Position numbers and translations under genes: made by a program. The notes below the pieces were generated by a model, which searched no databases, was not told the DNA's origin, and worked only from the letters and a program-made list of their open reading frames with translations. A DNA stretch of 22,040 nt from a virus. This document shows, piece after piece, positions 929 to 19,127 of the stretch (the first letter of the stretch is position 1; the number at the start of each line of letters is the position of its first letter). Location: the UHGV virus genome UHGV-0332375; one strand, written 5' to 3'.

Positions 929-3751
929 ATGGCCCGCATCCCGGAAGCAGAGTTGCAGCACCTGAAAGCCGCCGTCTCCTTAGTCGCCGTGGTTCAGGCG
1001 CAGGGGCGACAACTGGTTAAGAAAGGGAAGGACTTCACCACGCTGTGTCCGTTCCATGACGAGAAAACGCCGTCCTGTGTGATCTCGCCCGAGAAAAACC
1101 TGTATCACTGCTTCGGCTGTAACGCAGGCGGATCGGTGCTGAACTGGGTGATGCAGACGGAAAAACTCAGCCTGCGTAAGGCAGCGGAACGTCTGAAAGC
1201 GGAGCTGGGCGACAATCCCGCCGTGGTGCCGCTGGTCACCAGGGATGAGCCGGAAATCTTCGCGGACGATGAAGCGGGCCGCCAGAAGCTGCTGGGCCGC
1301 GTGGTGGAGTTCTACCATCACACGCTGCTGAACGCGCCGGAAGCGGTGGCGTACCTGGAAAAGCGCCGTCTTAACCATCCTGAACTGGTCGCTGCCTTCA
1401 AACTCGGCTTCGCCAACCGTACCCTGCCTTACCGCCTGCCCGCCGTTAAATCACGGGCGGGCGAGAAGATCCGCGCCCGGCTTAAGGGTGTGGGTGTGCT
1501 GCGCGAGTCCGGGCATGAACACTTCACCGGATCGCTGGTTGTGCCGGTGATGGATCTGAACGGGCAGATCCGCGAGATGTACGGGCGCAAGATCACCGAC
1601 AGGTTGCGCAGCGGTACGGCGTTACACCTGTACCTGCCCGGTGCTCACGGCGGCGTGTGGAACGAGCAGGCGCTGATCGGGTCATCCGTGGTTATCCTGT
1701 GCGAATCGCTGATCGACGCCATGTCGTTCTGGGTCGCCGGAGTCCGTAACGTCACGGCGGCTTACGGGGTGAACGGCTTCACCGGTGAGATGCGGGCCGC
1801 ACTGCTGGCACACGGCGTTAAGCAGGTGCTGATCGCCTACGACAACGATCCGGCGGGCAATGAGGCAGCGGTGAAACTGGCTTCTTCCTTAGCCGCTGAC
1901 GGGATCGCCACGTTCCGCGTACTGTTCCCGGCGGGCATGGATGCGAACGGTTATCTGTGCCAGGTGGCAGAGCCGGAACAGGCGTTCAGTGTGTTGCTGG
2001 ACGGCGCGGTGCCCATGAGTGACCTGGCTGACGTGGCGAGTATCGCGCCGCAGGCCAGCGCGGAGCCTGCACACCTCACTTCGTTAGCCGCTGATGTTGC
2101 CGCGCTTCCGGCAGTTAGTGCGCCTGCGCCGGGCGTCAGCGTGGAAACCCTGGCTGATGGCGAACTGATGGTAGCCTTACCGGGCGAACGCTGGACAATC
2201 CGGGGCGTAAGCCGCAAAACCAACGCGGCGGCGATGAAGGTTAACGCGCAGGTGCTGGACACGGAAAGCGGCGTGGTGTTCGCCGATGCGGTGGATATGA
2301 TGAGCGCCCGCAGTCGCGGCGGTTATGCGCGGGCCGCAGCGGCAGAGCTTGGCCTGGCAGAAGGCGATCTGCGTCGCTCGCTGGGTAAGGTGCTGCTGGC
2401 GCTGGAGCACTGGCAGGCCGCACCGGAGCCCGCGAATGCCGCCCCGGAGATGACGCCGGAAGATCGGGAGGCAGCGCTTGAGTTGTTGCGCTCGCCGGAT
2501 CTTGCATCACGCATCGCGGCAGACATGGCGGCGTGTGGTGTGGTGGGTGAGTCCACCAACCTGACGGCGGCGTATCTGGCGGCGGTGTCGCGTAAGCTGG
2601 ACAGGCCGCTGGCGGTGCTGATCCAGTCATCGAGCGCGGCGGGCAAATCCTCGCTGATGGATGCGGTGCTCAACCTGATCCCGCCGGAAGAACGCTTACA
2701 GTACAGCGCCATGACCGGGCAGAGCCTGTTCTACCTCGGTGAAACCAACCTGCAACACAAGATCCTCGCCATCGCGGAAGAAGAAGGTGTGCGCCAGGCG
2801 GCGTATGCGCTCAAGCTGTTGCAGTCGGACGGCGAGTTAACGATCGCGTCAACGGGTAAGGACGACGCCAGCGGTAACCTGGTCACGAAACAGTACACGG
2901 TAAAAGGCCCGGTGATGCTGATGCTGACCACCACCGCCATCGACGTTGACGAGGAGTTACTCAACCGTTGCCTGGTGCTGACGGTGAACGAGTCGCGGGA
3001 GCAGACGGAAGCGATCCATGCGGCGCAGCGTTACGCGCAGACGCTGGAAGGACTGCTGGCGGCTAACGAAAAAAGTTACATCACTCAGCTTCACCAGAAC
3101 GCGCAGCGGCTGTTACGTCCGCTCAACGTGGTGAACCCGTTCGCGTCACAGCTCACGTTCATGAGCGACAAAACCCGCACCCGGCGCGACCACATGAAAT
3201 ACCTGACGCTGATCCAGACGATCGCCCTGCTGCACCAGTATCAGCGGGAGATCAAACGTGTGGAGCATCGCGGGCAGGTGGTGGAGTACATCGAGGTGAC
3301 GCGGGAAGACATCGCGCTGGCGAACCGCCTGGCACATGAAATACTCGGGCGCACCCTGGACGAAATGCCGCCGCAGACCAGAAAGCTGTTGCTGCTGATC
3401 CAGACAATGGTCGGTGAACTGGCAGCGGCGCAGCACTGCAAACCCGGCGAGGTACGCTTCACGCGCCGGGAGATCCGCGACTTCACGCAGTGGAGCGACA
3501 ACCAGCTTAAAGTCCACTGTATGCGGCTGGCGGAAATGGAATACCTGCTGATCCACGGCGGCAGCCGGGGTCACCTGCTGCAATACGAGTTGCTGTGGGA
3601 CGGCAGCGGCGACGGCTCGCACCTGTGCGGCCTGATCGAACCGGAGGACAGCCCGGTGTATGACTCCGGCAAGTTGGGGCAGAACGCGGACAGGTTGCCC
3701 TTAAGTTGCCCACATGTTGGGGCTAAGTTGGGGCTAAGTTGGGGGCGGTAA
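929..3751 (+). CDS. DNA primase, DnaG-like (CHC2 zinc finger, TOPRIM) fused to a large C-terminal domain with a P-loop-like motif
   Basis: 940-aa ORF. N-terminus CPFHDEKTPSC…YHCFGCNAGGS matches the DnaG zinc-binding domain (E. coli DnaG CCPFHNEKTPSF…YHCFGCGAHG); TOPRIM-like ILCESLIDAMS and AYDNDPAGNEAA; Walker-A-like SSSAAGKSS in the C-terminal half. The last ~30 codons overlap an iteron-like repeat array, so the exact C-terminus is uncertain. Confidence 0.85.
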   Translation: MARIPEAELQHLKAAVSLVAVVQAQGRQLVKKGKDFTTLCPFHDEKTPSCVISPEKNLYHCFGCNAGGSVLNWVMQTEKLSLRKAAERLKAELGDNPAVVPLVTRDEPEIFADDEAGRQKLLGRVVEFYHHTLLNAPEAVAYLEKRRLNHPELVAAFKLGFANRTLPYRLPAVKSRAGEKIRARLKGVGVLRESGHEHFTGSLVVPVMDLNGQIREMYGRKITDRLRSGTALHLYLPGAHGGVWNEQALIGSSVVILCESLIDAMSFWVAGVRNVTAAYGVNGFTGEMRAALLAHGVKQVLIAYDNDPAGNEAAVKLASSLAADGIATFRVLFPAGMDANGYLCQVAEPEQAFSVLLDGAVPMSDLADVASIAPQASAEPAHLTSLAADVAALPAVSAPAPGVSVETLADGELMVALPGERWTIRGVSRKTNAAAMKVNAQVLDTESGVVFADAVDMMSARSRGGYARAAAAELGLAEGDLRRSLGKVLLALEHWQAAPEPANAAPEMTPEDREAALELLRSPDLASRIAADMAACGVVGESTNLTAAYLAAVSRKLDRPLAVLIQSSSAAGKSSLMDAVLNLIPPEERLQYSAMTGQSLFYLGETNLQHKILAIAEEEGVRQAAYALKLLQSDGELTIASTGKDDASGNLVTKQYTVKGPVMLMLTTTAIDVDEELLNRCLVLTVNESREQTEAIHAAQRYAQTLEGLLAANEKSYITQLHQNAQRLLRPLNVVNPFASQLTFMSDKTRTRRDHMKYLTLIQTIALLHQYQREIKRVEHRGQVVEYIEVTREDIALANRLAHEILGRTLDEMPPQTRKLLLLIQTMVGELAAAQHCKPGEVRFTRREIRDFTQWSDNQLKVHCMRLAEMEYLLIHGGSRGHLLQYELLWDGSGDGSHLCGLIEPEDSPVYDSGKLGQNADRLPLSCPHVGAKLGLSWGR

Positions 3752-3803
3752 AACCGCCTGTAAGCCGCGCCAGTACTGGCACTGATGCGCCGCAAGTTGG
3801 AGC
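3671..3803. repeat. Iteron-like array of AAGTTGGGGC-type repeats (putative replication origin of the primase-bearing element)
   Basis: Copies at 3671-3680, 3692-3700 (AGGTTGCCC), 3703-3711, 3714-3723, 3725-3734, 3736-3746 and 3793-3803; three are in exact 11-bp tandem register (3714-3746). Read by eye from the sequence. Confidence 0.5.
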
Positions 3804-3903
3804 AGATGAAAAAACACTGTTCCCGACAGCCAGGAAAACATCACATCGTAACAGTAATACGCCGGAAAGCCGCCCGACACCCCATGACACGGCTCCGACA
3901 GCT

Positions 3904-3985
3904 CTGTAAGCCGCTCCGTGTCTGTTGTTGCTAACCATTCGCATGTATAAACAAACAGTTCATTTTTTACAAAAAACGCGCTATA
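3904..3985. repeat. Left copy of an imperfect ~85-bp direct repeat (CTGTAAGCCGC … ATGTATAAACAAACAG … ACAAAAAACGCGCT)
   Basis: Aligns by eye with 6306-6385: identical 11-mer CTGTAAGCCGC, 15/16 match over ATGTATAA(A/G)CAAACAG, similar T-run/ACAAAA/CGCT tail. A third partial copy of the 11-mer is at 3758-3768. Marks the GC-rich to AT-rich transition. Confidence 0.6.
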
Positions 3986-4126
3986 TACATCAATAGGTTG
4001 GAAGATGGTTTCTCCCCATCGATTATGAGTGTTAAAGCATTTTTATGACAATATGGTCATATTTTTGACCTAAGCTTATTTAGATGGTAGGATACATAAC
4101 CGTGATAAAGTAAATGGGCTGTCATT

Positions 4127-5266
4127 ATGATTTTAAATTTTGGTGCGAAAAATTTCTTCAGCTTTAAGGAAGGATTTGATATTTCATTTGAGCTTGGTAA
4201 TACTTGCCCAAAAGAAATTTCAAATGGGAAAGGCGTAACGAATATCCTTTGTATCAAAGGGGCTAATGGTTCAGGTAAAACGAATATACTAAAGGCACTA
4301 AGTTTTTTAACTAGTTTTATCTCTAATTCTTTTGATCTTAAACCAAATGCATATTTGCAGTTTGATCCATATTTTAATAGTAAATCTGAATCTGATTTCT
4401 ATATAACATTTGTATTAGATAATGTTATTTACAGATATGAAGCGTCAATGACTGACGTTGAGGTTAAACGAGAAGCTCTTTATAGAAAAAGTAAACGAGA
4501 AACTAAAGTTATTGAACGTATCAACGATGCAGTTGTGTTCACAATTAAAGAGTTTGATGAATTAAAAAGTATTAAAATGCGAAAAAATGTATCCCTTTTT
4601 AGCATGGCAATGCAATATGATGTTGATTGTGTTAGAGCAATTCATGAAAGTTTTACTAGGGTTATATCAAACGTCAGATATTCAGGTTTATTGACAGAAG
4701 TGCACGAATTAGAATATTTAAACGAATTTTATCATAATAACCCAGATGTATTCGATTTTTGTAAAAAAATTATAATGAAATTCGACCCCTCTATTCATGA
4801 TATTTATATAGCTAAAAATATTAATGATGACGGGAAAGTTACTTACAGGCCTTGGTTTGAGTTTGAGTTTGATGGTGAAACTGATATTTTAAGTTTTAAC
4901 CTGCAATCAAGTGGAACAAAATCATTATATAAGCAGTTAGGAAGTTATAAAGCTGTCCTGGCATTAGGTGGAACGCTTGTACTTGATGAGTTTGACATAA
5001 ATCTTCATCCTCATATACTTCCACATTTATTAGGTATTTTTATTGATGAGGAGCAAAACCCATATAATGCTCAGTTAATATTTACAACTCATAATACTGA
5101 GATTCTGGATTTTTTAGGAAAACATCGAACATATTTAGTCAACAAAAATAAGACTGAAAGTTATTGTTATCGACTTGATGAAATCCCTAGCGATATTTTA
5201 AGGAATGATCGCCCCATAACACCAGCCTATAATCAAGGTAAGATTGGTGGAGTTCCAAATTTATGA
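4127..5266 (+). CDS. ABC/AAA_21-family ATPase (abortive-infection / defence-type ATPase)
   Basis: 379 aa; Walker A GANGSGKTNILKA near residue 45, Walker B LVLDEFDINLHP, TTHN motif near the C-terminus; N-terminal MILNFGAKNFFSFKE typical of AAA_15/AAA_21 ATPases; strongly AT-rich codon usage; candidate promoter TTGACC-N17-TAGGAT about 4065-4093. Confidence 0.8.
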   Translation: MILNFGAKNFFSFKEGFDISFELGNTCPKEISNGKGVTNILCIKGANGSGKTNILKALSFLTSFISNSFDLKPNAYLQFDPYFNSKSESDFYITFVLDNVIYRYEASMTDVEVKREALYRKSKRETKVIERINDAVVFTIKEFDELKSIKMRKNVSLFSMAMQYDVDCVRAIHESFTRVISNVRYSGLLTEVHELEYLNEFYHNNPDVFDFCKKIIMKFDPSIHDIYIAKNINDDGKVTYRPWFEFEFDGETDILSFNLQSSGTKSLYKQLGSYKAVLALGGTLVLDEFDINLHPHILPHLLGIFIDEEQNPYNAQLIFTTHNTEILDFLGKHRTYLVNKNKTESYCYRLDEIPSDILRNDRPITPAYNQGKIGGVPNL

Positions 5267-5952: not shown

Positions 5953-6295
5953 ATGCGTAAAGCCCATTTTACTGAGCATCAGATCATCGCTGTGATTAAG
6001 TCGGTTGAAGCCGGACGAACTGTCAAGGATGTTTGCCGCGAGACCGGTTTCTCTGAAGCGACCTACTACAATTGGAAACCTAAATACGGTGGTATGGAAG
6101 CCTTTGATATTAAAAAGATAAAGGATTTTGAGGACGAGAACAGGCGTCTCAAACAGATGTTTGCTGACATATCAGCCTTGAGAACAGGGCATTGAGACGT
6201 TATCGGAAAAAGCTTTGAAACCAGTCTTTAAGCGTGAGCTGGTCACTCATCTGATAACGACGTTCGGGCTTAGTATCCGTCAGGCCTGCCCCGGA
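5953..6295 (+). mobile_element. Truncated IS3-family insertion sequence remnant (orfA plus start of orfB)
   Basis: ORF 5953-6195 has the HTH_Tnp_1 pattern (FTEHQIIAVIKSVEAGRTVKDVCRETGFSEATYYNWKPKYGGME, similar to IS407-group OrfA); a shifted frame after an A-rich slippery-like stretch (GGAAAAAG ~6205) reads …LKPVFKRELVTHLITTFGLSIRQAC…, typical of an OrfB N-terminus, then breaks off about 6295 where repeat copy C begins. Higher GC than the flanking cargo. Confidence 0.6.
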
Positions 6296-6305
6296 CTTTA
6301 ATTTG

Positions 6306-6385
6306 CTGTAAGCCGCGTGATTCGTGCCCTGACACCCCAAATATATGTATAAGCAAACAGATCTTTTATAACAAAACCGCTCTTT
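6306..6385. repeat. Right copy of the imperfect ~85-bp direct repeat (CTGTAAGCCGC … ATGTATAAGCAAACAG … ACAAAACCGCTC)
   Basis: See 3904-3985; abuts the truncated IS remnant. Confidence 0.6.
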
Positions 6386-7808: not shown

Positions 7809-8993
7809 TTATCCTGTACGGATTTCTCCATGCGGTACCACTACCCAGTTTGTATGATTTTTAGTGTATATTTTAGTCGATTTTGCATCGCTATGTGCCA
7901 TTCTTCCTTGTGGATCAATACCTTGTTTATCAAATAAGTGAGCAGCCAAAGCCCTTATCTCATGAAATGTAGGCCTTTCTTCCATTGCTAAGTGATTGCA
8001 CAGTCCGAGTTTGTCACGTACAGCAGAGAATGAGCGGCTTATGTAGTCCGGGGCCACTTGAGTAGGGTGCGAAACCTCTTTGCTACGTTTTACATTCCGC
8101 TTTGGAATTCTGTGGACAACGTAAGGACTGGCTACATTATCCCGACTGTTATCAATGATGCGTTTTAGTTCATCACCGATAGGGATTGCAACATGTGACG
8201 CCTCCTTTTTCTGTACCTTTTGCCGATGAATATATAGCATTCCGTATATTCCATTTTGTTGTTGCTCGAACCAGATACATCCACATATGCCGTCTTTAGG
8301 TTCGCGAATTGAGTAACGGATCCGCGATACTTCTAACCGTGCATGTGTCGTTTGTAAGGCTAAGTCCATTGCAGTTCTTAACCATGGTGCCGCGGCGCGG
8401 CGTATAGCCATGAAATGCTCGAATGATAGGCGTTGTCTTTTCTTCTCATCAGTCCTACGTTTTTTTTTCCTCGTTGCGGGGTTATCAAGCATTAGTGATT
8501 CGTCGACCGCATATGAGAACAACTTTTTAAGGAAGCCAACTTTTCTGTTCTGCACATTTGCGGATGAATTGTCATGATATTTGTTGATATAGGCGTTAAC
8601 GTGTTCAAGTTCGATATCGCATGCCGGAATATTTAAGAAAAAATCTTTTACGCGTAGAGCGTCATTTTTCCAGTCATCTAAGGTGCTCTGGGAAGGACGT
8701 TCGTCTTCGACAATTCGGGCCATTATGTGATCAACATGTTCAGCAAATGGTTTTGCTTCTCCGGTAACCCCGCCAGATTCTCTAATAAGATTATCCACTG
8801 ATGGGTATAATTCTGGTCGCATCCTCAGGTTGTACTCTCTGGCGATTGCAACGGCTATTGTCCGATCCTTACCTATATTTTTCTTTTTTCCGGTAATAAG
8901 TGTGAATTTATAAACACCTCGATCTTTATCAAAAACCAGATAATCAGGAAGATGTCTGTATTCTTTTTTACGTGGCCTTGCCGCCATGGTCAT
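7809..8993 (-). CDS. int: Tyrosine recombinase (phage integrase, lambda Int family)
   Basis: 394 aa; C-terminal catalytic region with PTFHEIRALAAHLF … GRMAHSDAKSTKIYTKNH; N-terminal basic arm-binding-like region; overlaps the xis stop. Confidence 0.9.
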   Translation of the reverse strand: MTMAARPRKKEYRHLPDYLVFDKDRGVYKFTLITGKKKNIGKDRTIAVAIAREYNLRMRPELYPSVDNLIRESGGVTGEAKPFAEHVDHIMARIVEDERPSQSTLDDWKNDALRVKDFFLNIPACDIELEHVNAYINKYHDNSSANVQNRKVGFLKKLFSYAVDESLMLDNPATRKKKRRTDEKKRQRLSFEHFMAIRRAAAPWLRTAMDLALQTTHARLEVSRIRYSIREPKDGICGCIWFEQQQNGIYGMLYIHRQKVQKKEASHVAIPIGDELKRIIDNSRDNVASPYVVHRIPKRNVKRSKEVSHPTQVAPDYISRSFSAVRDKLGLCNHLAMEERPTFHEIRALAAHLFDKQGIDPQGRMAHSDAKSTKIYTKNHTNWVVVPHGEIRTG

Positions 8994-10489: not shown

Positions 10490-11314
10490 TCAGGCGGTGA
10501 AAGTACCAATAAAGGTTTCTACTTTGCTGTCTTTGAATTTCTCAACAAGCAGATCACGAAATTCGTTAGCCATTTCTTCCTGCACCGCCTCCAGCTGAAT
10601 AATGCGCAGAACCAGTACAGGACGATCGCCAGTGATAATGCTGAGGCGTAATTTAAATGGACGTTCTTTCAGACCTTCAAACGGAACGCATTTAAATTCA
10701 AATGCCACTGGCATAATATCTTTGGTTTTCGCTTCGACAGACTCCATCAGGGAGCGTTTGCCGCTGAAGTCATTATCTTCAAAATCAGCGGTCTGGTTTG
10801 CTTCAATCGTGATTTTACGGACAGCCGCAGCCGCTTTTGTTGCCTGAATAGCGTCACCATTAGCATCAAAGCCCACAAGGTAGTCGGCCCAGTCTTCAAT
10901 CCATTCTGCCAGTGACTTCTGGGAATGACGCTCGCCATTAACAGACAACAGAGCAGAGAACGGTGCTGTCTTTTTCAGTTTGAGAGTGGCGGTGTTATCT
11001 GCGTGACCTGGTTCATCAATAGTACCCAGGTTAAGCACACTGACGGCTCGCATATTATCGGCATCGATAAAGCAGCGGGTGCCTTCATCTGCAAGATCTT
11101 TAGAATAACGGGTAAAGTCATCGATGCTGGCAGTGGAAAGCGCACCACGGAAACGGAAGCGATTTAAATTAAATTTTTCCAGATCATGAATGCGGAAATT
11201 CTCAGGCAATGCCACAGCATCGGCACCAATCTTACTGATAATTTCATTAACACCCTGAGCAGAAATAAGAGCATGGATTTGATTAATTGCGGTTGCGTCT
11301 AAGTTCTGAGACAT
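10490..11314 (-). CDS. Hypothetical prophage protein, YfdQ-like (DUF2303-type)
   Basis: 274-aa ORF, uniform coding composition; size and position upstream of the HD protein match the yfdQ-yfdR arrangement of CPS-53 as I recall it. Confidence 0.6.
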
Positions 11315-11379
11315 AATAAGTCCTCACTATATAAAGATATTCAGTGATGAGATAAATAATCAGTTAATTAAGAACGATA

Positions 11380-11742
11380 TTAATGACCTGCTGCGCGAAG
11401 TTTTCCGTCAGGTTCACCGGCAAGAGTCAGTAATTGTCCCTGGTCTTCCTGCAGAATAGTCAGGCGACCACCGCGATTGACATACATCGGCGTTTCGGTG
11501 GTGTCTTCTTCAGAAATTTTCCCGCGGTTAGTCGGGCGAACATATGAGAGTTTGTGTTTGATTTTCACACGGTTCTCATCAAACGGTTCGATTTCCAGGT
11601 TGAGCGAGACCTTACCTTTGGTTTTCGTGTTCATCACACCGGAAGCGACTTCACTGAGAACAGCGCCGATTTTGGTTTCAAATACGCCGCCGTCCAGCTC
11701 CCCGATAAATGCCTGCACATCAGTACTGCGTTCGCTAGCCAT
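11380..11742 (-). CDS. Hypothetical prophage protein (YfdP-like by size and position)
   Basis: Track ORF 11380-11973 has a 77-codon N-terminal extension running through two strong hairpins; the ATG at 11742 has an AGGAG SD 7 nt upstream, giving 120 aa (MASERSTDVQAF…). Confidence 0.55.
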   Translation of the reverse strand: MASERSTDVQAFIGELDGGVFETKIGAVLSEVASGVMNTKTKGKVSLNLEIEPFDENRVKIKHKLSYVRPTNRGKISEEDTTETPMYVNRGGRLTILQEDQGQLLTLAGEPDGKLRAAGH

Positions 11743-11790
11743 TTTGCTGCTCCTCATCATATCGACCCTGCAAGGTCGGTTGGTTTCTCC

Positions 11791-11925
11791 ACAAAACAGA
11801 GAAGAACACCTGCGGTGACTGCCGCCCGGATGGATTGGGTTATGAGCCCGTCGTCCGGTGATGCTCTTCTCTGTTTTGTAAAAAGAGCGGTACCAGCCGG
11901 AAGCAAGGGTACAAACTGGTACCGC
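11791..11925 (-). promoter_or_regulatory. Structured leader RNA: two perfect inverted repeats upstream of the early-left operon
   Basis: IR1 ACAAAACAGAGAAGA (11791-11805) / TCTTCTCTGTTTTGT (11865-11879), 15-bp perfect stem plus CACC/GGTG extension around a GC-rich 46-nt loop; IR2 GCGGTACCAG (11887-11896) / CTGGTACCGC (11916-11925). Confidence 0.4.
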
Positions 11926-12329
11926 CAAAGCAGTGGCTGTTGTGGTGGGGTTGTCACTCAGGCGTATGGTCAACCTGACAATCCGGTGTCCTCAACGGGG
12001 AAAGAGTAACCCCGCCATACTTACCGCCGCGCCATTTCGCGGATTACCACAACGCTGAGAGCACTTAGCCAGTTACGGCACCACACTTTGTCGCGGCTCC
12101 ATAAATGCCCTCATCGTTGCACCCTGGTCTCTTCCCAGGCGTCAAACCGAATCGCCACGCTGGTTAGGCGTCTTATCAGCATCATCATTGACTTGCACAT
12201 TCCGGCTACCTGGTTTGTTTGCCCGAGCAAGGAGTGGATTGTCCCCTTTAACGTCCCCAGACCGCTAACGACGCATGTGCCATACGCCGTGTTACAACCA
12301 AATTTTGTTAGTACCTTGTTTGTTTGTCT

Positions 12330-12395
12330 GGAAAGAAAGATAAAATGAAGTTGCGCATTATGCAAGTGTTTTTGTTGCGAGATATGCAATTTAAA
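12330..12395 (-). promoter_or_regulatory. Leftward early promoter/operator region (pL/OL-like)
   Basis: Two 15-bp sites TTGCGCATTATGCAA (12351-12365) and TTGCGAGATATGCAA (12375-12389), form TTGC-N7-GCAA, same family as a site in the cI-cro intergenic region; minus-strand -35 TTGCAT and -10 TATCTT candidates. Confidence 0.45.
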
Positions 12396-12397
12396 GG

Positions 12398-12424
12398 GTA
12401 ATGAAAAGCCACCTTTGGGTGGCT
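12398..12424 (-). terminator. Putative terminator downstream of the repressor gene
   Basis: Stem AGCCACC / GGTGGCT with TTTG loop (12407-12424), followed on the minus strand by TTTCATTAC. Confidence 0.45.
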
Positions 12425-12444
12425 AATTGATGAGGAGGTAAGGG

Positions 12445-13137
12445 TTAATTGTGTCGCTTAAGGGTTTGTGACTGGCTGATTAAGACCTTTCCAAAGACCA
12501 TAAACCGGTGTTCATTTTCGCTGGTAATTCCCCATTCACGGTAAATCTGGTTATCAGAAATCACCAGTAGTTTGTCAGGTATCATTTGCAGTCGTTTGAC
12601 ATAAATTTTATCATCAAAACCAAATACATAGATACCATCTCCATCAAACTGATTGATACTGACATCAACGAAGATGAGATCTCCTGGCTCAATGGTTGGA
12701 CACATACTGTCCCCACGAACGTTGATAACTTTAATGTGATTGGCTGGCCGTCCGCCAAACATCGATACAGCATTATCAGTTCTGTATTCAATGGCATGAA
12801 TCACATCAATGACATCACCGCCCTGGATAAGGCCATTTCCCGCACTGGCACTGACATCCAGCATTTCAATACGGAATACATCCTTCACCTGCGCAACATC
12901 CTCACTAATACTGTTTTTACATACAGTATTACTTTTGACGTCTGAGGTAAAGAGATCAGCAATATCAACACCTAAGCTCCTGGCAATATTACTCAGGGCT
13001 TGTTCAGTGAATTGTTTCTGCTTACCTGTTTCCAGGCGTGAGATATTCGCCGCATCCACTCCTATTGCTTCAGCGAGATCGGCGATTTTCATGTTCTTCG
13101 CCTGGCGAAGTTGTCTGACTCGGTTTCCTATGTTCAT
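12445..13137 (-). CDS. cI: Phage CI-type repressor (N-terminal HTH, C-terminal S24 LexA-like peptidase)
   Basis: 230 aa; HTH IADLAEAIGVDAANISRLETGKQ; autocleavage domain with VRGDSMCPTIEPGDLIFVD; divergent from a cro-like gene. Confidence 0.9.
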   Translation of the reverse strand: MNIGNRVRQLRQAKNMKIADLAEAIGVDAANISRLETGKQKQFTEQALSNIARSLGVDIADLFTSDVKSNTVCKNSISEDVAQVKDVFRIEMLDVSASAGNGLIQGGDVIDVIHAIEYRTDNAVSMFGGRPANHIKVINVRGDSMCPTIEPGDLIFVDVSINQFDGDGIYVFGFDDKIYVKRLQMIPDKLLVISDNQIYREWGITSENEHRFMVFGKVLISQSQTLKRHN

Positions 13138-18374: not shown

Positions 18375-19127
18375 ATGAACCTTGAAGCCTTACCGAAATA
18401 TTACTCCCCGAAATCTCCAAAATTGAGCGATGACGCACCGGCGACAGGCTCTGGTGGTTTAACAATTACGGATGTAATGGCTGCGCAGGGGATGGTGCAG
18501 TCTAAAGCACCGCTTGGGTTTGCCTTATTCCTGGCAAAAGTTGGTGTTCAGGATCCTCAGTTTGCGATTGAAGGTCTGCTCAATTACGCGATGGCACTGG
18601 ATAACCCGACATTGAACAAATTGAGTGAAGAAACCCGGTTACAGATCATCCCTTACCTTGTGAATTTTGCCTTTGCTGATTATTCCAGGTCTGCGGCAAG
18701 TAAGGCTCGCTGTGAGCATTGTGCTGGTACTGGATTTCATAATGTATTGCGCGAAGTGGTGAAACACTCCAGAAGCGGGGAATCTGTTATCAAGGAAGAG
18801 TGGGTGAAGGAACTGTGTCAGCATTGTCATGGTAAGGGAGAAGTCAGCACAGCGTGCAGAGGGTGTAAGGGTAAAGGTATTGTCCTGGATGAAAAAAGAA
18901 CCCGGCTTCATGGCACGCCTGTTTATAAGGTTTGTGGGCGTTGCAATGGAAACCGGTTTAGCCGTTTACCAACCACACTGGCGCGGCTTCATGTCCAGAA
19001 GCTGGTACCAGACCTGACGGATTATCAGTGGTACAAAGGATATGCAGATGTCATTGATAAACTGGTTACAAAGTGCTGGCAGGAGGAATCTTACGCTGAA
19101 GCACAATTGAGAAAGGTGACAAGATAA
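18375..19127 (+). CDS. Q: Late-gene antiterminator Q
   Basis: 250 aa; multiple CxxC/HxxH zinc motifs (CEHCAGTG, CQHCHGKG, CRGCKGKG, CGRCNG); position after the rusA/KilA/DUF968 region and before the lysis cassette; GGAGAA SD. Confidence 0.7.
   Translation: MNLEALPKYYSPKSPKLSDDAPATGSGGLTITDVMAAQGMVQSKAPLGFALFLAKVGVQDPQFAIEGLLNYAMALDNPTLNKLSEETRLQIIPYLVNFAFADYSRSAASKARCEHCAGTGFHNVLREVVKHSRSGESVIKEEWVKELCQHCHGKGEVSTACRGCKGKGIVLDEKRTRLHGTPVYKVCGRCNGNRFSRLPTTLARLHVQKLVPDLTDYQWYKGYADVIDKLVTKCWQEESYAEAQLRKVTR

What the first reader, a model, noticed from the sequence alone, without database searches (positions are those of the whole stretch)
11743..12340. About 600-bp non-coding leader with two perfect inverted repeats between the OL-like operators and the first early-left gene
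No convincing ORF occupies 11743-12340 (candidate ORFs overlap operators or run through hairpins), and no N-like basic protein gene is evident. Leftward transcripts would contain a 15-bp perfect stem (11791-11805 / 11865-11879, extended by CACC/GGTG) around a GC-rich loop, and a 10-bp perfect stem (11887-11896 / 11916-11925). These could be a cis-acting antitermination RNA (as HK022 put elements are), a processing site, or a small structured RNA.
Basis: seen in the sequence. Interest (0 to 1): 0.5.

Follow-up and report, generated by a model that had tools for sequence, protein, structure and literature searches.

The report
Processed non-coding RNA array behind PL
The 600-base "empty" stretch after the prophage's early-left promoter is a string of conserved folded RNAs: an unannotated pseudoknotted RNA found in a third of complete E. 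coli genomes, followed by a relative of the DicF small-RNA precursor with its terminator and processing stems. It is not an HK022-type antiterminator.

Summary
Window 11743-12340 is non-coding, and both inverted repeats are at the stated coordinates. The put-like reading is not supported. On the minus strand, which is the RNA sense, the leader is a mosaic of RNA modules.

1. 12293-12117 is a ~177-nt structured RNA ("module C") with four helices and two pseudoknots. It covaries strongly in two independently collected sets. It is absent from Rfam 15 and never annotated. It occurs in 1833 of 5426 complete E. coli genomes, in lambdoid PL leaders, in P1 between trnI and ban, and in epsilon15-like phages upstream of tRNA-Arg.
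2. A long stem (H1) aligns with the RNase III site that makes the 190-nt DicF species in Qin.
3. 12053-11939 is about 89-93% identical to the 5' domain of the Qin DicF precursor.
4. It lacks DicF's 5' seed.

The likely mechanism is a PL transcript that is partly terminated and cut into discrete RNAs. The function of module C is unknown, and it is the interesting part.

The parts
12407..12424 (-). Intrinsic terminator ending the cI-like repressor gene (12445-13137), upstream of PL
   Evidence: Terminator scan, (AGCCACCCAAAGGTGGCT + TTTT). The cI gene was identified by Pfam HTH + Peptidase_S24.
12350..12389 (.). Two operator-like 16-mers (GTTGCGCATTATGCAA / GTTGCGAGATATGCAA)
   Evidence: Direct repeat family D2. 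The same TTGCG..CGCAA operators lie just upstream of module C in other loci.
12337..12365 (-). Predicted PL promoter: -35 TTGCAT (12365-12360), 17-nt spacer, -10 TATCTT (12342-12337). Transcription start is inferred near 12330.
   Evidence: Read from the sequence. The same -10 TATCTT with a 17-nt spacer is present in L015. The consensus scanner did not call it, so this is inferred.
12117..12293 (-). Module C, a ~177-nt pseudoknotted structured RNA. P1 is 12289-12285/12273-12269. PK1 is GCACAU 12280-12275 with AUGUGC 12200-12195. P2 has a variable extension. P4 is 12171-12168/12160-12157 with the loop CUAACCA. PK2 is AACC 12165-12162 with GGUU 12148-12145. P5 is 12139-12135/12127-12123 with the loop GAAGAGA.
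   Evidence: Covariance model R1 scores 142 bits here, and this is the only copy in the window. Covariation: 98% and 99% of cells paired and 12 and 10 pairs changed on both sides in two independent alignments, with 0 of 500 shuffles reaching these values. No Rfam family matches.
12050..12119 (-). H1, a long stem (5' arm CAACGAUGAGGGCAUUU 12119-12103; 3' arm AAGUGCUCUCAGCGUUG 12066-12050) around a ~36-nt payload. Predicted RNase III site.
   Evidence: 64 of 70 distinct 3' flanks of module C begin a stem of at least 12 bp within 15 nt of P5. The 3' arm aligns with the Qin segment that holds the inferred 5' end of the 190-nt DicF species (PMC10448788).
11939..12053 (-). Module B, a homologue of the 5' domain of the 190-nt DicF precursor. 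The closing helix is GUUGUGG/CCACAAC, with three internal helices.
   Evidence: 89% identity over 123 nt to Qin directly upstream of dicF, and 75% to the P1 ban-operon leader ('dicF-like region'). The RNAalifold structure shows compensatory changes.
11880..11929 (-). An intrinsic terminator and the likely 3' end of a DicF-family small RNA.
   Evidence: UUUGGCGGUAYCAGUUU and CCGCYCUUUUUA are shared with DicF. ST64B, LLS and P1 carry unrelated hairpin sequences with the same U-run at the same place.
11791..11879 (-). Predicted RNase III site that sets the 5' end of the yfdP mRNA.
   Evidence: RNAalifold on 10 diverged leaders gives 38 pairs, 9 of them with compensatory changes. It is the positional analogue of the stem after DicF where RNase III makes the 72-nt DicF (PMC5069750).
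11832..11852 (-). Hairpin inside H2 that looks like the initiator tRNA-fMet anticodon stem-loop (GACGGGCUCAUAACCCAAUCC)
   Evidence: Invariant stem and 7-nt loop in 10 leaders. The same piece follows tRNA genes in Klebsiella phages. The resemblance to tRNA-fMet rests on my own knowledge of that sequence and was not tested with a tool.
11740..11780 (-). yfdP translation start region: small hairpin 11761-11780, Shine-Dalgarno GAGGAG 11755-11750, AUG 11742-11740
   Evidence: yfdP was identified by PGAP and PHROG 204.

Best explanation
The stretch is the untranslated 5' part of the early-left (PL) transcript of an N-less lambdoid prophage. It is a chain of separately conserved RNA modules, not one regulatory element. 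RNA sense is the window's minus strand.

Proposed course of events:
1. Transcription starts near 12330.
2. Module C, a compact double-pseudoknot RNA, is made first.
3. The long stem H1 is probably cut by RNase III, as the homologous stem is in the Qin dicBF transcript. The cut would release module C at its 3' side and create the 5' end of a ~180-nt DicF-precursor-like RNA (module B plus hairpin).
4. Some transcripts end at that hairpin's U-run. This yields the small RNA and attenuates the operon.
5. The remaining transcripts read through. They are cut again in the long stem H2, giving the yfdP-yfdQ-yfdR mRNA its 5' end.

What is shown here: the anatomy, the conservation, the covariation and the homology to the DicF locus. 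What is inferred: the RNase III/E cleavages, the partial termination and the promoter. Module C itself most likely acts as a discrete, stable RNA that binds a conserved host component. Its function is not known.
For: - Mosaic make-up: different parts of the leader match different phages.
- Module C: covariation in two independently collected sets, including a compensatory C-G to A-U change in pseudoknot 2 in two lineages.
- Module C conservation: its 3' core stays nearly invariant even when sequences are selected by a 5' pattern only.
- Strand: all tRNA genes found in 46 neighbouring loci are on the same strand as module C.
- Context: 58 of 128 loci have a cI-like gene directly upstream, 29 are epsilon15-like cassettes, and 11 or more are P1-like with ban downstream.
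- Long stems: one follows module C in 64 of 70 distinct flanks.
- Module B is 89% identical to the Qin sequence just upstream of dicF.
- Published experiments on Qin: a 190-nt DicF species with an RNase III 5' end, a 53-nt species with an RNase E 5' end, a 3' end from termination or from RNase III (72 nt), and both terminated and read-through transcripts (PMC10448788, PMC5069750).
- Across 119 loci, module B is always followed by a variable seed, a GC hairpin, a U-run and then the 5' arm of a long stem.
- H2 covaries.
- No coding signal.
Against: - No expression or cleavage data exist for this prophage. The RNase III sites are placed by alignment and by the reported 190-nt size, not mapped.
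- Rfam's DicF model does not match the window's hairpin even at E <= 10, and DicF's 5' seed is deleted. A DicF-like regulatory role is therefore unproven.
- H1 and the closing helix of module B compete for the same GUUG, so the in vivo fold may differ.
- The promoter is weak by consensus and the scanner did not call it.
- Closely related yfdP-type leaders (ST64B, LLS, phiNP, SfII) lack module C, so it is not essential to this kind of operon.
Confidence: 0.6

Rival explanations
1. Module C is a cis-acting, processive antiterminator RNA. It would work like HK022 put without being a member of that family: the nascent RNA binds the elongating RNA polymerase and carries it through the DicF-type terminator and later terminators. 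This would replace the missing N protein.
For: - It lies 6-40 nt after the predicted PL start in lambdoid copies.
- The prophage has no N-like gene and no put element.
- A conserved terminator lies between it and the first gene.
- Its nearly invariant loops suggest binding to a conserved host machine.
- Authors of the phage LLS paper note that the early antitermination mechanism of such phages is unknown (PMC12315714).
- The base of helix P1 (ACGGCG...CAUGCGUCG) resembles the base of put stem I. This was seen by eye only.
Against: - There is only one copy and none on the PR side.
- It is absent from ST64B, LLS, phiNP and SfII, which have the same terminator-yfdP cassette.
- In P1 it sits about 2.3 kb into an operon, right after a tRNA. 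In epsilon15-like phages it heads a tiny tRNA cassette that needs no antitermination.
- A probable RNase III stem directly downstream would cut it off the polymerase.
- In Qin the homologous terminator is read through without it (PMC10448788).
- In some loci a near-consensus boxA follows it.
Confidence: 0.17
2. Module C is a ligand-sensing riboswitch or a self-cleaving ribozyme that controls or processes the downstream RNA.
For: It has a compact multi-helix fold with two pseudoknots and many invariant unpaired nucleotides, which is typical of such RNAs. It lies in a 5' leader and next to tRNA processing sites.
Against: No Rfam ribozyme or riboswitch family matches at E <= 10. There is no consistent expression platform. 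What follows varies: a long stem, a tRNA, a terminator or the ban 5'UTR. The downstream genes are unrelated to each other, which argues against a metabolite sensor.
Confidence: 0.1
3. The leader is inert debris: decayed tRNA-array and DicF-locus fragments left by recombination between phages, with hairpins that persist without function.
For: The composition is strongly mosaic. tRNA-like fragments occur in the payloads (T-arm-like and anticodon-arm-like pieces). DicF's seed is deleted.
Against: Compensatory changes keep helices in module C, module B and H2 intact across phages that differ by 20-25%. Module C keeps a ~60-nt near-invariant core across lambdoid, P1-like and epsilon15-like phages from about ten enterobacterial genera. 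Debris would not be maintained this way.
Confidence: 0.08
4. A small protein is encoded here, for example the 66-aa ORF 11757-11957(-) that matches phrog_33599, or the plus-strand ORFs annotated in mEp460.
For: phrog_33599 matches at E = 6e-18. 'Hypothetical protein' calls exist in several phage records.
Against: The PHROG match covers only residues 24-60, which is the H2 stem. tblastn needs frame changes in phiNP and Kp4866-6, and coverage breaks at different points in each phage. There is no Pfam match. PGAP calls nothing. Length variation in the terminator and in the H2 payload is irregular. The substitutions are compensatory for RNA helices.
Confidence: 0.03

Closest known systems
dicBF operon intergenic region of the Qin prophage: the 190-nt and 53-nt DicF RNAs (Rfam RF00039), made by RNase III, RNase E and an intrinsic terminator
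   Same: The order of parts is the same: long stem, ~120-nt structured 5' domain (89% identical), hairpin plus U-run, then another long stem before the next gene. Both lie in the repressor-controlled early operon of a lambdoid prophage.
   Different: DicF nucleotides 1-12 (the xylR-pairing seed) and 7 upstream bases are deleted. The hairpin loop and 3' arm (the ftsZ/pykA-pairing part) differ, and Rfam's DicF model does not match. In Qin the region sits after three small genes. Here it sits in the leader directly behind PL and behind an extra RNA, module C.
HK022 putL/putR and HK639 putL-like antiterminator RNAs
   Same: A structured RNA lies at the 5' end of the PL transcript of a lambdoid phage without N, and terminators lie downstream.
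   Different: There is no sequence or profile similarity. Module C is ~165-185 nt with two pseudoknots, against ~73 nt and two stems for put (PMC9378689). It has a single copy, and it also occurs in non-lambdoid phages beside tRNA genes.
Phage tRNA gene clusters with co-transcribed stable RNAs (P1 ban operon tRNAs; T4 tRNA region with species 1 and 2 RNAs, the latter from my own knowledge)
   Same: Module C and the H2 payload are co-oriented with tRNA genes and directly abut them in P1, epsilon15-like phages and Klebsiella lambdoid phages. Long flanking stems suggest excision by host RNases.
   Different: This window has no tRNA gene at all. Module C is not tRNA-like according to ARAGORN or Rfam.
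lambda nutL / rrn-type boxA-boxB sites
   Same: The position behind PL is the same. In a few relatives (L088, L032) module C is followed by a hairpin plus UGCUCUUUAACAA.
   Different: The window has no N gene. Its only GCUCUU near-match overlaps the terminator's 3' arm and U-run. The equivalent position in ST64B and LLS has no boxA-like sequence.

Membership tests
HK022 put antiterminator RNA | Sequence and structure consensus of put (about 70 nt, two stems; GAACGGC...CCAUGCGUCGG...UCAGGA) | tested here: not met
   nhmmer profile of HK022 putL, putR and HK639 putL: controls at E = 3.8e-21 and 1.8e-19, and no hit in window 11743-12444 at E <= 100. The module C model finds nothing in HK022 or HK639.
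HK022 put antiterminator RNA | Sites downstream of both early promoters (putL and putR) | tested here: not met
   There is only one module C copy in the 22-kb window, on the PL side. HK639 also has only a putL-like site annotated, so this feature is weak.
HK022 put antiterminator RNA | Factor-independent read-through of terminators that depends on the RNA polymerase beta' zinc-binding domain | not testable with these tools
   Needs reporter or in vitro transcription assays.
DicF small RNA (RF00039) | Match to the Rfam covariance model | tested here: not met
   No DicF hit in 11300-12500 at E <= 10 or at the gathering score.
DicF small RNA (RF00039) | Located directly after the conserved ~120-nt 5' domain of the 190-nt precursor | tested here: met
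   Module B is 89% identical to Qin L140 2752-2874, which ends 8 nt before dicF.
DicF small RNA (RF00039) | GC-rich hairpin followed by a U-run (intrinsic terminator forming the 3' end) | tested here: met
   10-bp stem plus UCUUUUU. The flanks UUUGGCGGUAYCAGUUU and CCGCYCUUUUUA are shared with DicF.
DicF small RNA (RF00039) | 5' seed UUUCUGGUGACG and the ftsZ-pairing 3' region | tested here: not met
   The seed is deleted and the loop and 3' arm differ. The duplex energy with the ftsZ start region is no better than shuffles, but the same test did not separate genuine DicF either.
DicF small RNA (RF00039) | [quoted passage not shown] | not testable with these tools
   Only the flanking long stems H1 and H2 can be shown. 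The cleavage evidence is for Qin (PMC10448788, PMC5069750).
lambda N / nut antitermination | N-like arginine-rich protein encoded as the first PL gene | tested here: not met
   No N-like PHROG or Pfam family among the leader ORFs or the early-left ORFs. PGAP annotates only a Q-type antiterminator.
lambda N / nut antitermination | boxA (YGCUCUUUA) followed by a boxB hairpin | tested here: not met
   The only GCUCUUU in the leader is the 3' arm plus U-run of the terminator hairpin, and the homologous sites in ST64B and LLS lack it.
Any Rfam 15 family (module C) | Covariance-model match | tested here: not met
   4227 families searched, at the gathering threshold over the whole window and at E <= 10 over 11300-12500. 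Only chance-level hits to unrelated families.
tRNA / tmRNA | Cloverleaf detectable by ARAGORN | tested here: not met
   0 genes in the window, while ARAGORN finds the flanking tRNAs in P1 and phiV10.
Intrinsic (Rho-independent) terminator | Stable GC-rich hairpin immediately followed by a U-run, conserved in position | tested here: met
   11887-11925 plus UCUUUUU. Unrelated stems with the same U-run occur at the same place in ST64B, LLS, P1 and at least 8 DicF variants. The simple scanner missed it because the loop exceeds 8 nt.

The most novel reading that the evidence does not exclude
Module C (12117-12293, minus strand) is a new class of phage-borne structured RNA. It is shared by lambdoid, P1-like and epsilon15-like enterobacterial phages and acts by binding a conserved host machine. 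One version: it reprograms RNA polymerase as an antiterminator that needs neither N nor put. Another version: it is released by RNase III/P/E as a stable decoy or inhibitor of a host RNase, a translation factor or a defence protein.
Probability: 0.3. Interest if true: 0.85.

Novelty: new variant of a known kind. Interest (0 to 1): 0.62.

Why it matters
First, the work explains a "600-bp gap" that annotation pipelines leave empty in thousands of E. coli genomes.

Second, it shows that the DicF locus is one member of a larger, shuffled family. The family has a conserved precursor domain with interchangeable seed and hairpin parts, spread over lambdoid phages and P1. That widens the set of prophage small RNAs that may act on host genes.

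Third, it exposes an unannotated ~170-nt double-pseudoknot RNA with strong covariation. This RNA is present in about a third of complete E. coli genomes and in the classic phage P1, and no function is known for it. Whatever it binds is likely a conserved host component.

Finally, N-less and put-less lambdoid phages are an acknowledged gap (PMC12315714). Module C gives one concrete, testable candidate for early-operon control in the subset of those phages that carry it.

Tried and rejected
- Rfam at the gathering threshold and at E <= 10: nothing in the region.
- ARAGORN: no tRNA or tmRNA in the window.
- put membership: rejected by a profile HMM with positive controls and by the reciprocal covariance-model search.
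- A second, PR-side copy of module C: none.
- Module C in ST64B, LLS, phiNP, SfII and K-12 CPS-53: absent.
- Reading the 10-bp stem plus CGCUCUUUUUACAA as a boxB-boxA nut site: rejected, because the homologous hairpins in ST64B and LLS have no GCUCUU.
- Protein-coding readings: rejected.
- Pairing of the DicF-like hairpin with the ftsZ start region by duplexfold: uninformative, because genuine DicF was not significant in the same test either.
- Literature search for the invariant 19-mer and related strings: no paper.
- Searches for a described RNA motif of this kind: nothing relevant.
- Papers that could not be read: King 2011 (put-like RNAs), Faubladier & Bouche 1994 (dicF-like prophage sequences) and Lobocka 2004 (P1 genome). 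An earlier description of module C in those papers cannot be excluded.

Full report
SETTING. The window is an E. coli lambdoid prophage and is 100% identical to several complete genomes. PGAP annotation of an identical locus, with Pfam and PHROG scans, gives the following layout:
- integrase at 7809-8993(-)
- early-left genes yfdR, yfdQ (10490-11314) and yfdP (11380-11742), all on the minus strand
- an unannotated gap
- a cI-like repressor at 12445-13137(-)
- cro-like and cII-like genes on the plus strand
- a Q-type antiterminator at 18375-19127
- lysis genes
No N-like protein family is present among the early-left ORFs.

THE OBSERVATION. Both inverted repeats are real and at the stated coordinates. 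In 300 dinucleotide-preserving shuffles the longest perfect inverted repeat never exceeded 10 bp and reached 10 in 2% of shuffles. The observed values are 15, 10 and 9. The leader RNA folds better than shuffles (z = -3.45).

The region is non-coding. PGAP calls nothing and the ORFs have no Pfam match. The single PHROG hit (phrog_33599) covers only the part of a 66-aa ORF that overlies the long stem, and its frame is broken in phiNP and Kp4866-6. mEp460 annotators placed ORFs on the opposite strand. These have no family support.

THE LEADER IS A MOSAIC. blastn against phage genomes shows that different segments match different phages:
- Window 11743-11927 matches SfV, SfII, ST64B and phiNP.
- Window 11931-12053 matches PPompW-type phages and P1.
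- Window 12047-12303 matches epsilon15-like phages (phiV10, SPN1S), P1/P7/D6, a Klebsiella phage and mEp390.
I treat the minus strand as the RNA strand. It is the PL direction, and every one of the tRNA genes found within 3 kb of the third segment in 46 loci is on that strand.

MODULE C (12293-12117). An alignment of seven distant copies showed a near-invariant core with obvious compensatory changes.

A scan of viral contigs with the invariant 19-mer gave 120 loci and 107 distinct sequences. On 31 representatives I tested a structure with helices P1, P2, P4 and P5 and two pseudoknots. PK1 pairs the P1 loop GCACAU with AUGUGC. PK2 pairs the P4 loop CACC with GGUG. The result was 98% of cells paired and 12 pairs changed on both sides. 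None of 500 shuffles reached these values, and slid controls gave 26-45% paired.

A second, independent set was collected from bacterial genomes with a pattern in the 5' half only. It gave 22 true hits, all in Enterobacteriaceae or Erwinia prophage regions except one in a MAG labelled Bacillota, which is probably misbinned. On this set 99.2% of cells were paired and 10 pairs covaried. The 3' core GGGUAGCCGGAAUGUGCAAGCCA was still invariant in 21 of 22 sequences. The window itself carries the compensatory AACC/GGUU version of PK2, and the same change occurs in a second lineage.

A covariance model built from the first alignment finds one copy in the window (142 bits). It finds none in HK022, HK639, K-12 CPS-53, ST64B, LLS, phiNP or SfII.

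Module C is in no Rfam 15 family. It is present in 1833 of 5426 complete E. coli genomes, at 2467 places of which 554 are on plasmids, and carries no annotation in any of the records listed.

It occurs in three contexts:
- Directly after a cI-like gene and PL-type operators (58 of 128 loci).
- In epsilon15-like phages, heading a small cassette (module C, long stem, tRNA-Arg(UCU), small ORF) antisense to the structural genes.
- In P1-like phages, between trnI and ban.

THE LONG STEMS. In 64 of 70 distinct flanks a stem of at least 12 bp starts within 15 nt of P5. In the window this is H1 (12119-12050). In phiV10 the tRNA begins right after the stem's 3' arm.

MODULES B AND A ARE A DICF-TYPE LOCUS. 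Window 12053-11931 is 89% identical to the sequence immediately upstream of dicF in the Qin prophage of K-12. It is 75% identical to the start of the P1 ban-operon leader, which the P1 record labels 'dicF-like region'. Its consensus fold shows compensatory changes.

Published experiments on Qin show the following (PMC10448788, PMC5069750):
- A 190-nt DicF species whose 5' end is made by RNase III.
- A 53-nt species whose 5' end is made by RNase E.
- A 3' end made by Rho-independent termination, or by RNase III on read-through RNA (72 nt).
- Both terminated and read-through transcripts.

Counting 190 nt back from the DicF 3' end places the RNase III cut in the 3' arm of a long stem that aligns with the window's H1 3' arm.

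After module B the window keeps UUUGGCGGUAYCAGUUU and CCGCYCUUUUUA. It lacks DicF nucleotides 1-12, and the loop and 3' arm differ.

A scan with a module B 19-mer gave 119 loci with 46 different tails: canonical DicF and at least eight other variants. Every tail is a variable seed, a GC hairpin and a U-run, followed by the 5' arm of a long stem. In ST64B, LLS and P1 the hairpin sequence is unrelated, but the hairpin plus U-run is kept at the same place. This is what a conserved intrinsic terminator looks like.

It closes a three-way junction. It is the positional analogue of the stem after DicF, where RNase III makes the 72-nt form.

MECHANISM. Shown here: anatomy, conservation, covariation and homology. 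Inferred by homology to Qin: RNase III cuts in H1 and H2, RNase E trimming, partial termination at 11880, and read-through into yfdPQR. Inferred from sequence: the PL promoter, with -35 at 12365-12360 and -10 at 12342-12337.

PUT-LIKE ANTITERMINATION. The HK639 record annotates a putL-like RNA. A profile of the three known put sequences recovers them strongly but finds nothing in this leader or in the ST64B, LLS, phiNP, SfII or Kp4866-6 leaders. Membership is therefore rejected.

A put-like function for module C remains possible. Its 5' position, the missing N and the terminator downstream speak for it. Four observations weaken the case:
- It is absent from sister leaders.
- Its contexts in P1 and in epsilon15-like phages do not call for antitermination.
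- A cleavable stem lies behind it.
- The DicF terminator is leaky in Qin.

LIMITS. There are no expression data. E-values from the short-calibrated model are rough. Both viral scans were truncated at 120 rows. Three key older papers could not be read, so an earlier description of module C cannot be excluded. No paper in the searchable library contains its core sequence.

VERDICT. The two hairpins are ordinary in kind: a DicF-family terminator and a processing stem. They sit in a new arrangement directly behind PL. The unexpected item is module C, a widespread, strongly supported, unannotated structured RNA of unknown function.

Noticed in passing
window 11832-11852 (-); also L132 1501-1551 and L133 1501-1551: The hairpin GACGGGCUCAUAACCC inside H2 copies the hallmark of the initiator tRNA-fMet anticodon arm: three G-C pairs plus the loop CUCAUAA. 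It is invariant in 10 diverged leaders. In Klebsiella phages GZ7 and Chronis it directly follows tRNA-Arg or tRNA-Asn genes downstream of Q. It could be a tRNA remnant, or a decoy or binding site for something that reads the initiator anticodon arm.
   Followed up: partly
window 6217-6343 (-): An Rfam isrN (RF01396) match at 61.7 bits, E = 2.9e-11. It lies in the island left of the prophage integrase, next to a transposase remnant and a DUF4760 gene.
   Followed up: no
L002 (phage P1), between module C and the ban start codon: The ban 5'UTR reads AUUUUCUGGUGAUGAC. It shares 10 consecutive bases with the DicF 5' seed UUUCUGGUGACG.
   Followed up: no
L006, L012, L103 (payloads of the long stem after module C): Some payloads contain tRNA T-arm-like sequences (GGTTCAATTCC, GGTTCGATTCC). 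This suggests that the long stems frame tRNA-derived inserts.
   Followed up: no
L088, L032, L045 (about 120-130 nt after the module C 19-mer): In these lambdoid loci module C is followed by a hairpin and a boxA-like sequence. L088 carries the consensus UGCUCUUUAACAA, and L032 and L045 carry close variants. The hairpin-then-boxA order is the one found in rRNA operon leaders. The 3' arms of the long stems elsewhere (UGCUCUUUCCGUUGUGGUGA) also resemble boxA plus boxC. This was not tested.
   Followed up: no
window 12280-12288 with 11961-11969; 12236-12243 with 11977-11984: There are 9-nt and 8-nt perfect complementarities between module C and module B (I4 and I8). Both modules share GUAUGGC. Whether this long-range pairing is conserved was not tested.
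   Followed up: no
L135 (ST64B), L136 (phiNP), L138 (LLS), L139 (SfII) leaders: These N-less yfdP-type phages have 630-1200-nt non-coding leaders with the same terminator-H2-yfdP cassette. They have neither module C nor a put element. Their 5' modules differ and were not analysed. LLS has an additional terminator-like hairpin early in its leader.
   Followed up: partly
L273 (mEp460) 3616-4169; cdtI, Ayreon and PhiR phage records: Several GenBank phage records annotate 'hypothetical proteins' across this leader, some on the strand opposite to PL. PHROG 33599 appears to be built from such calls. These are probably mis-annotations over structured RNA.
   Followed up: partly
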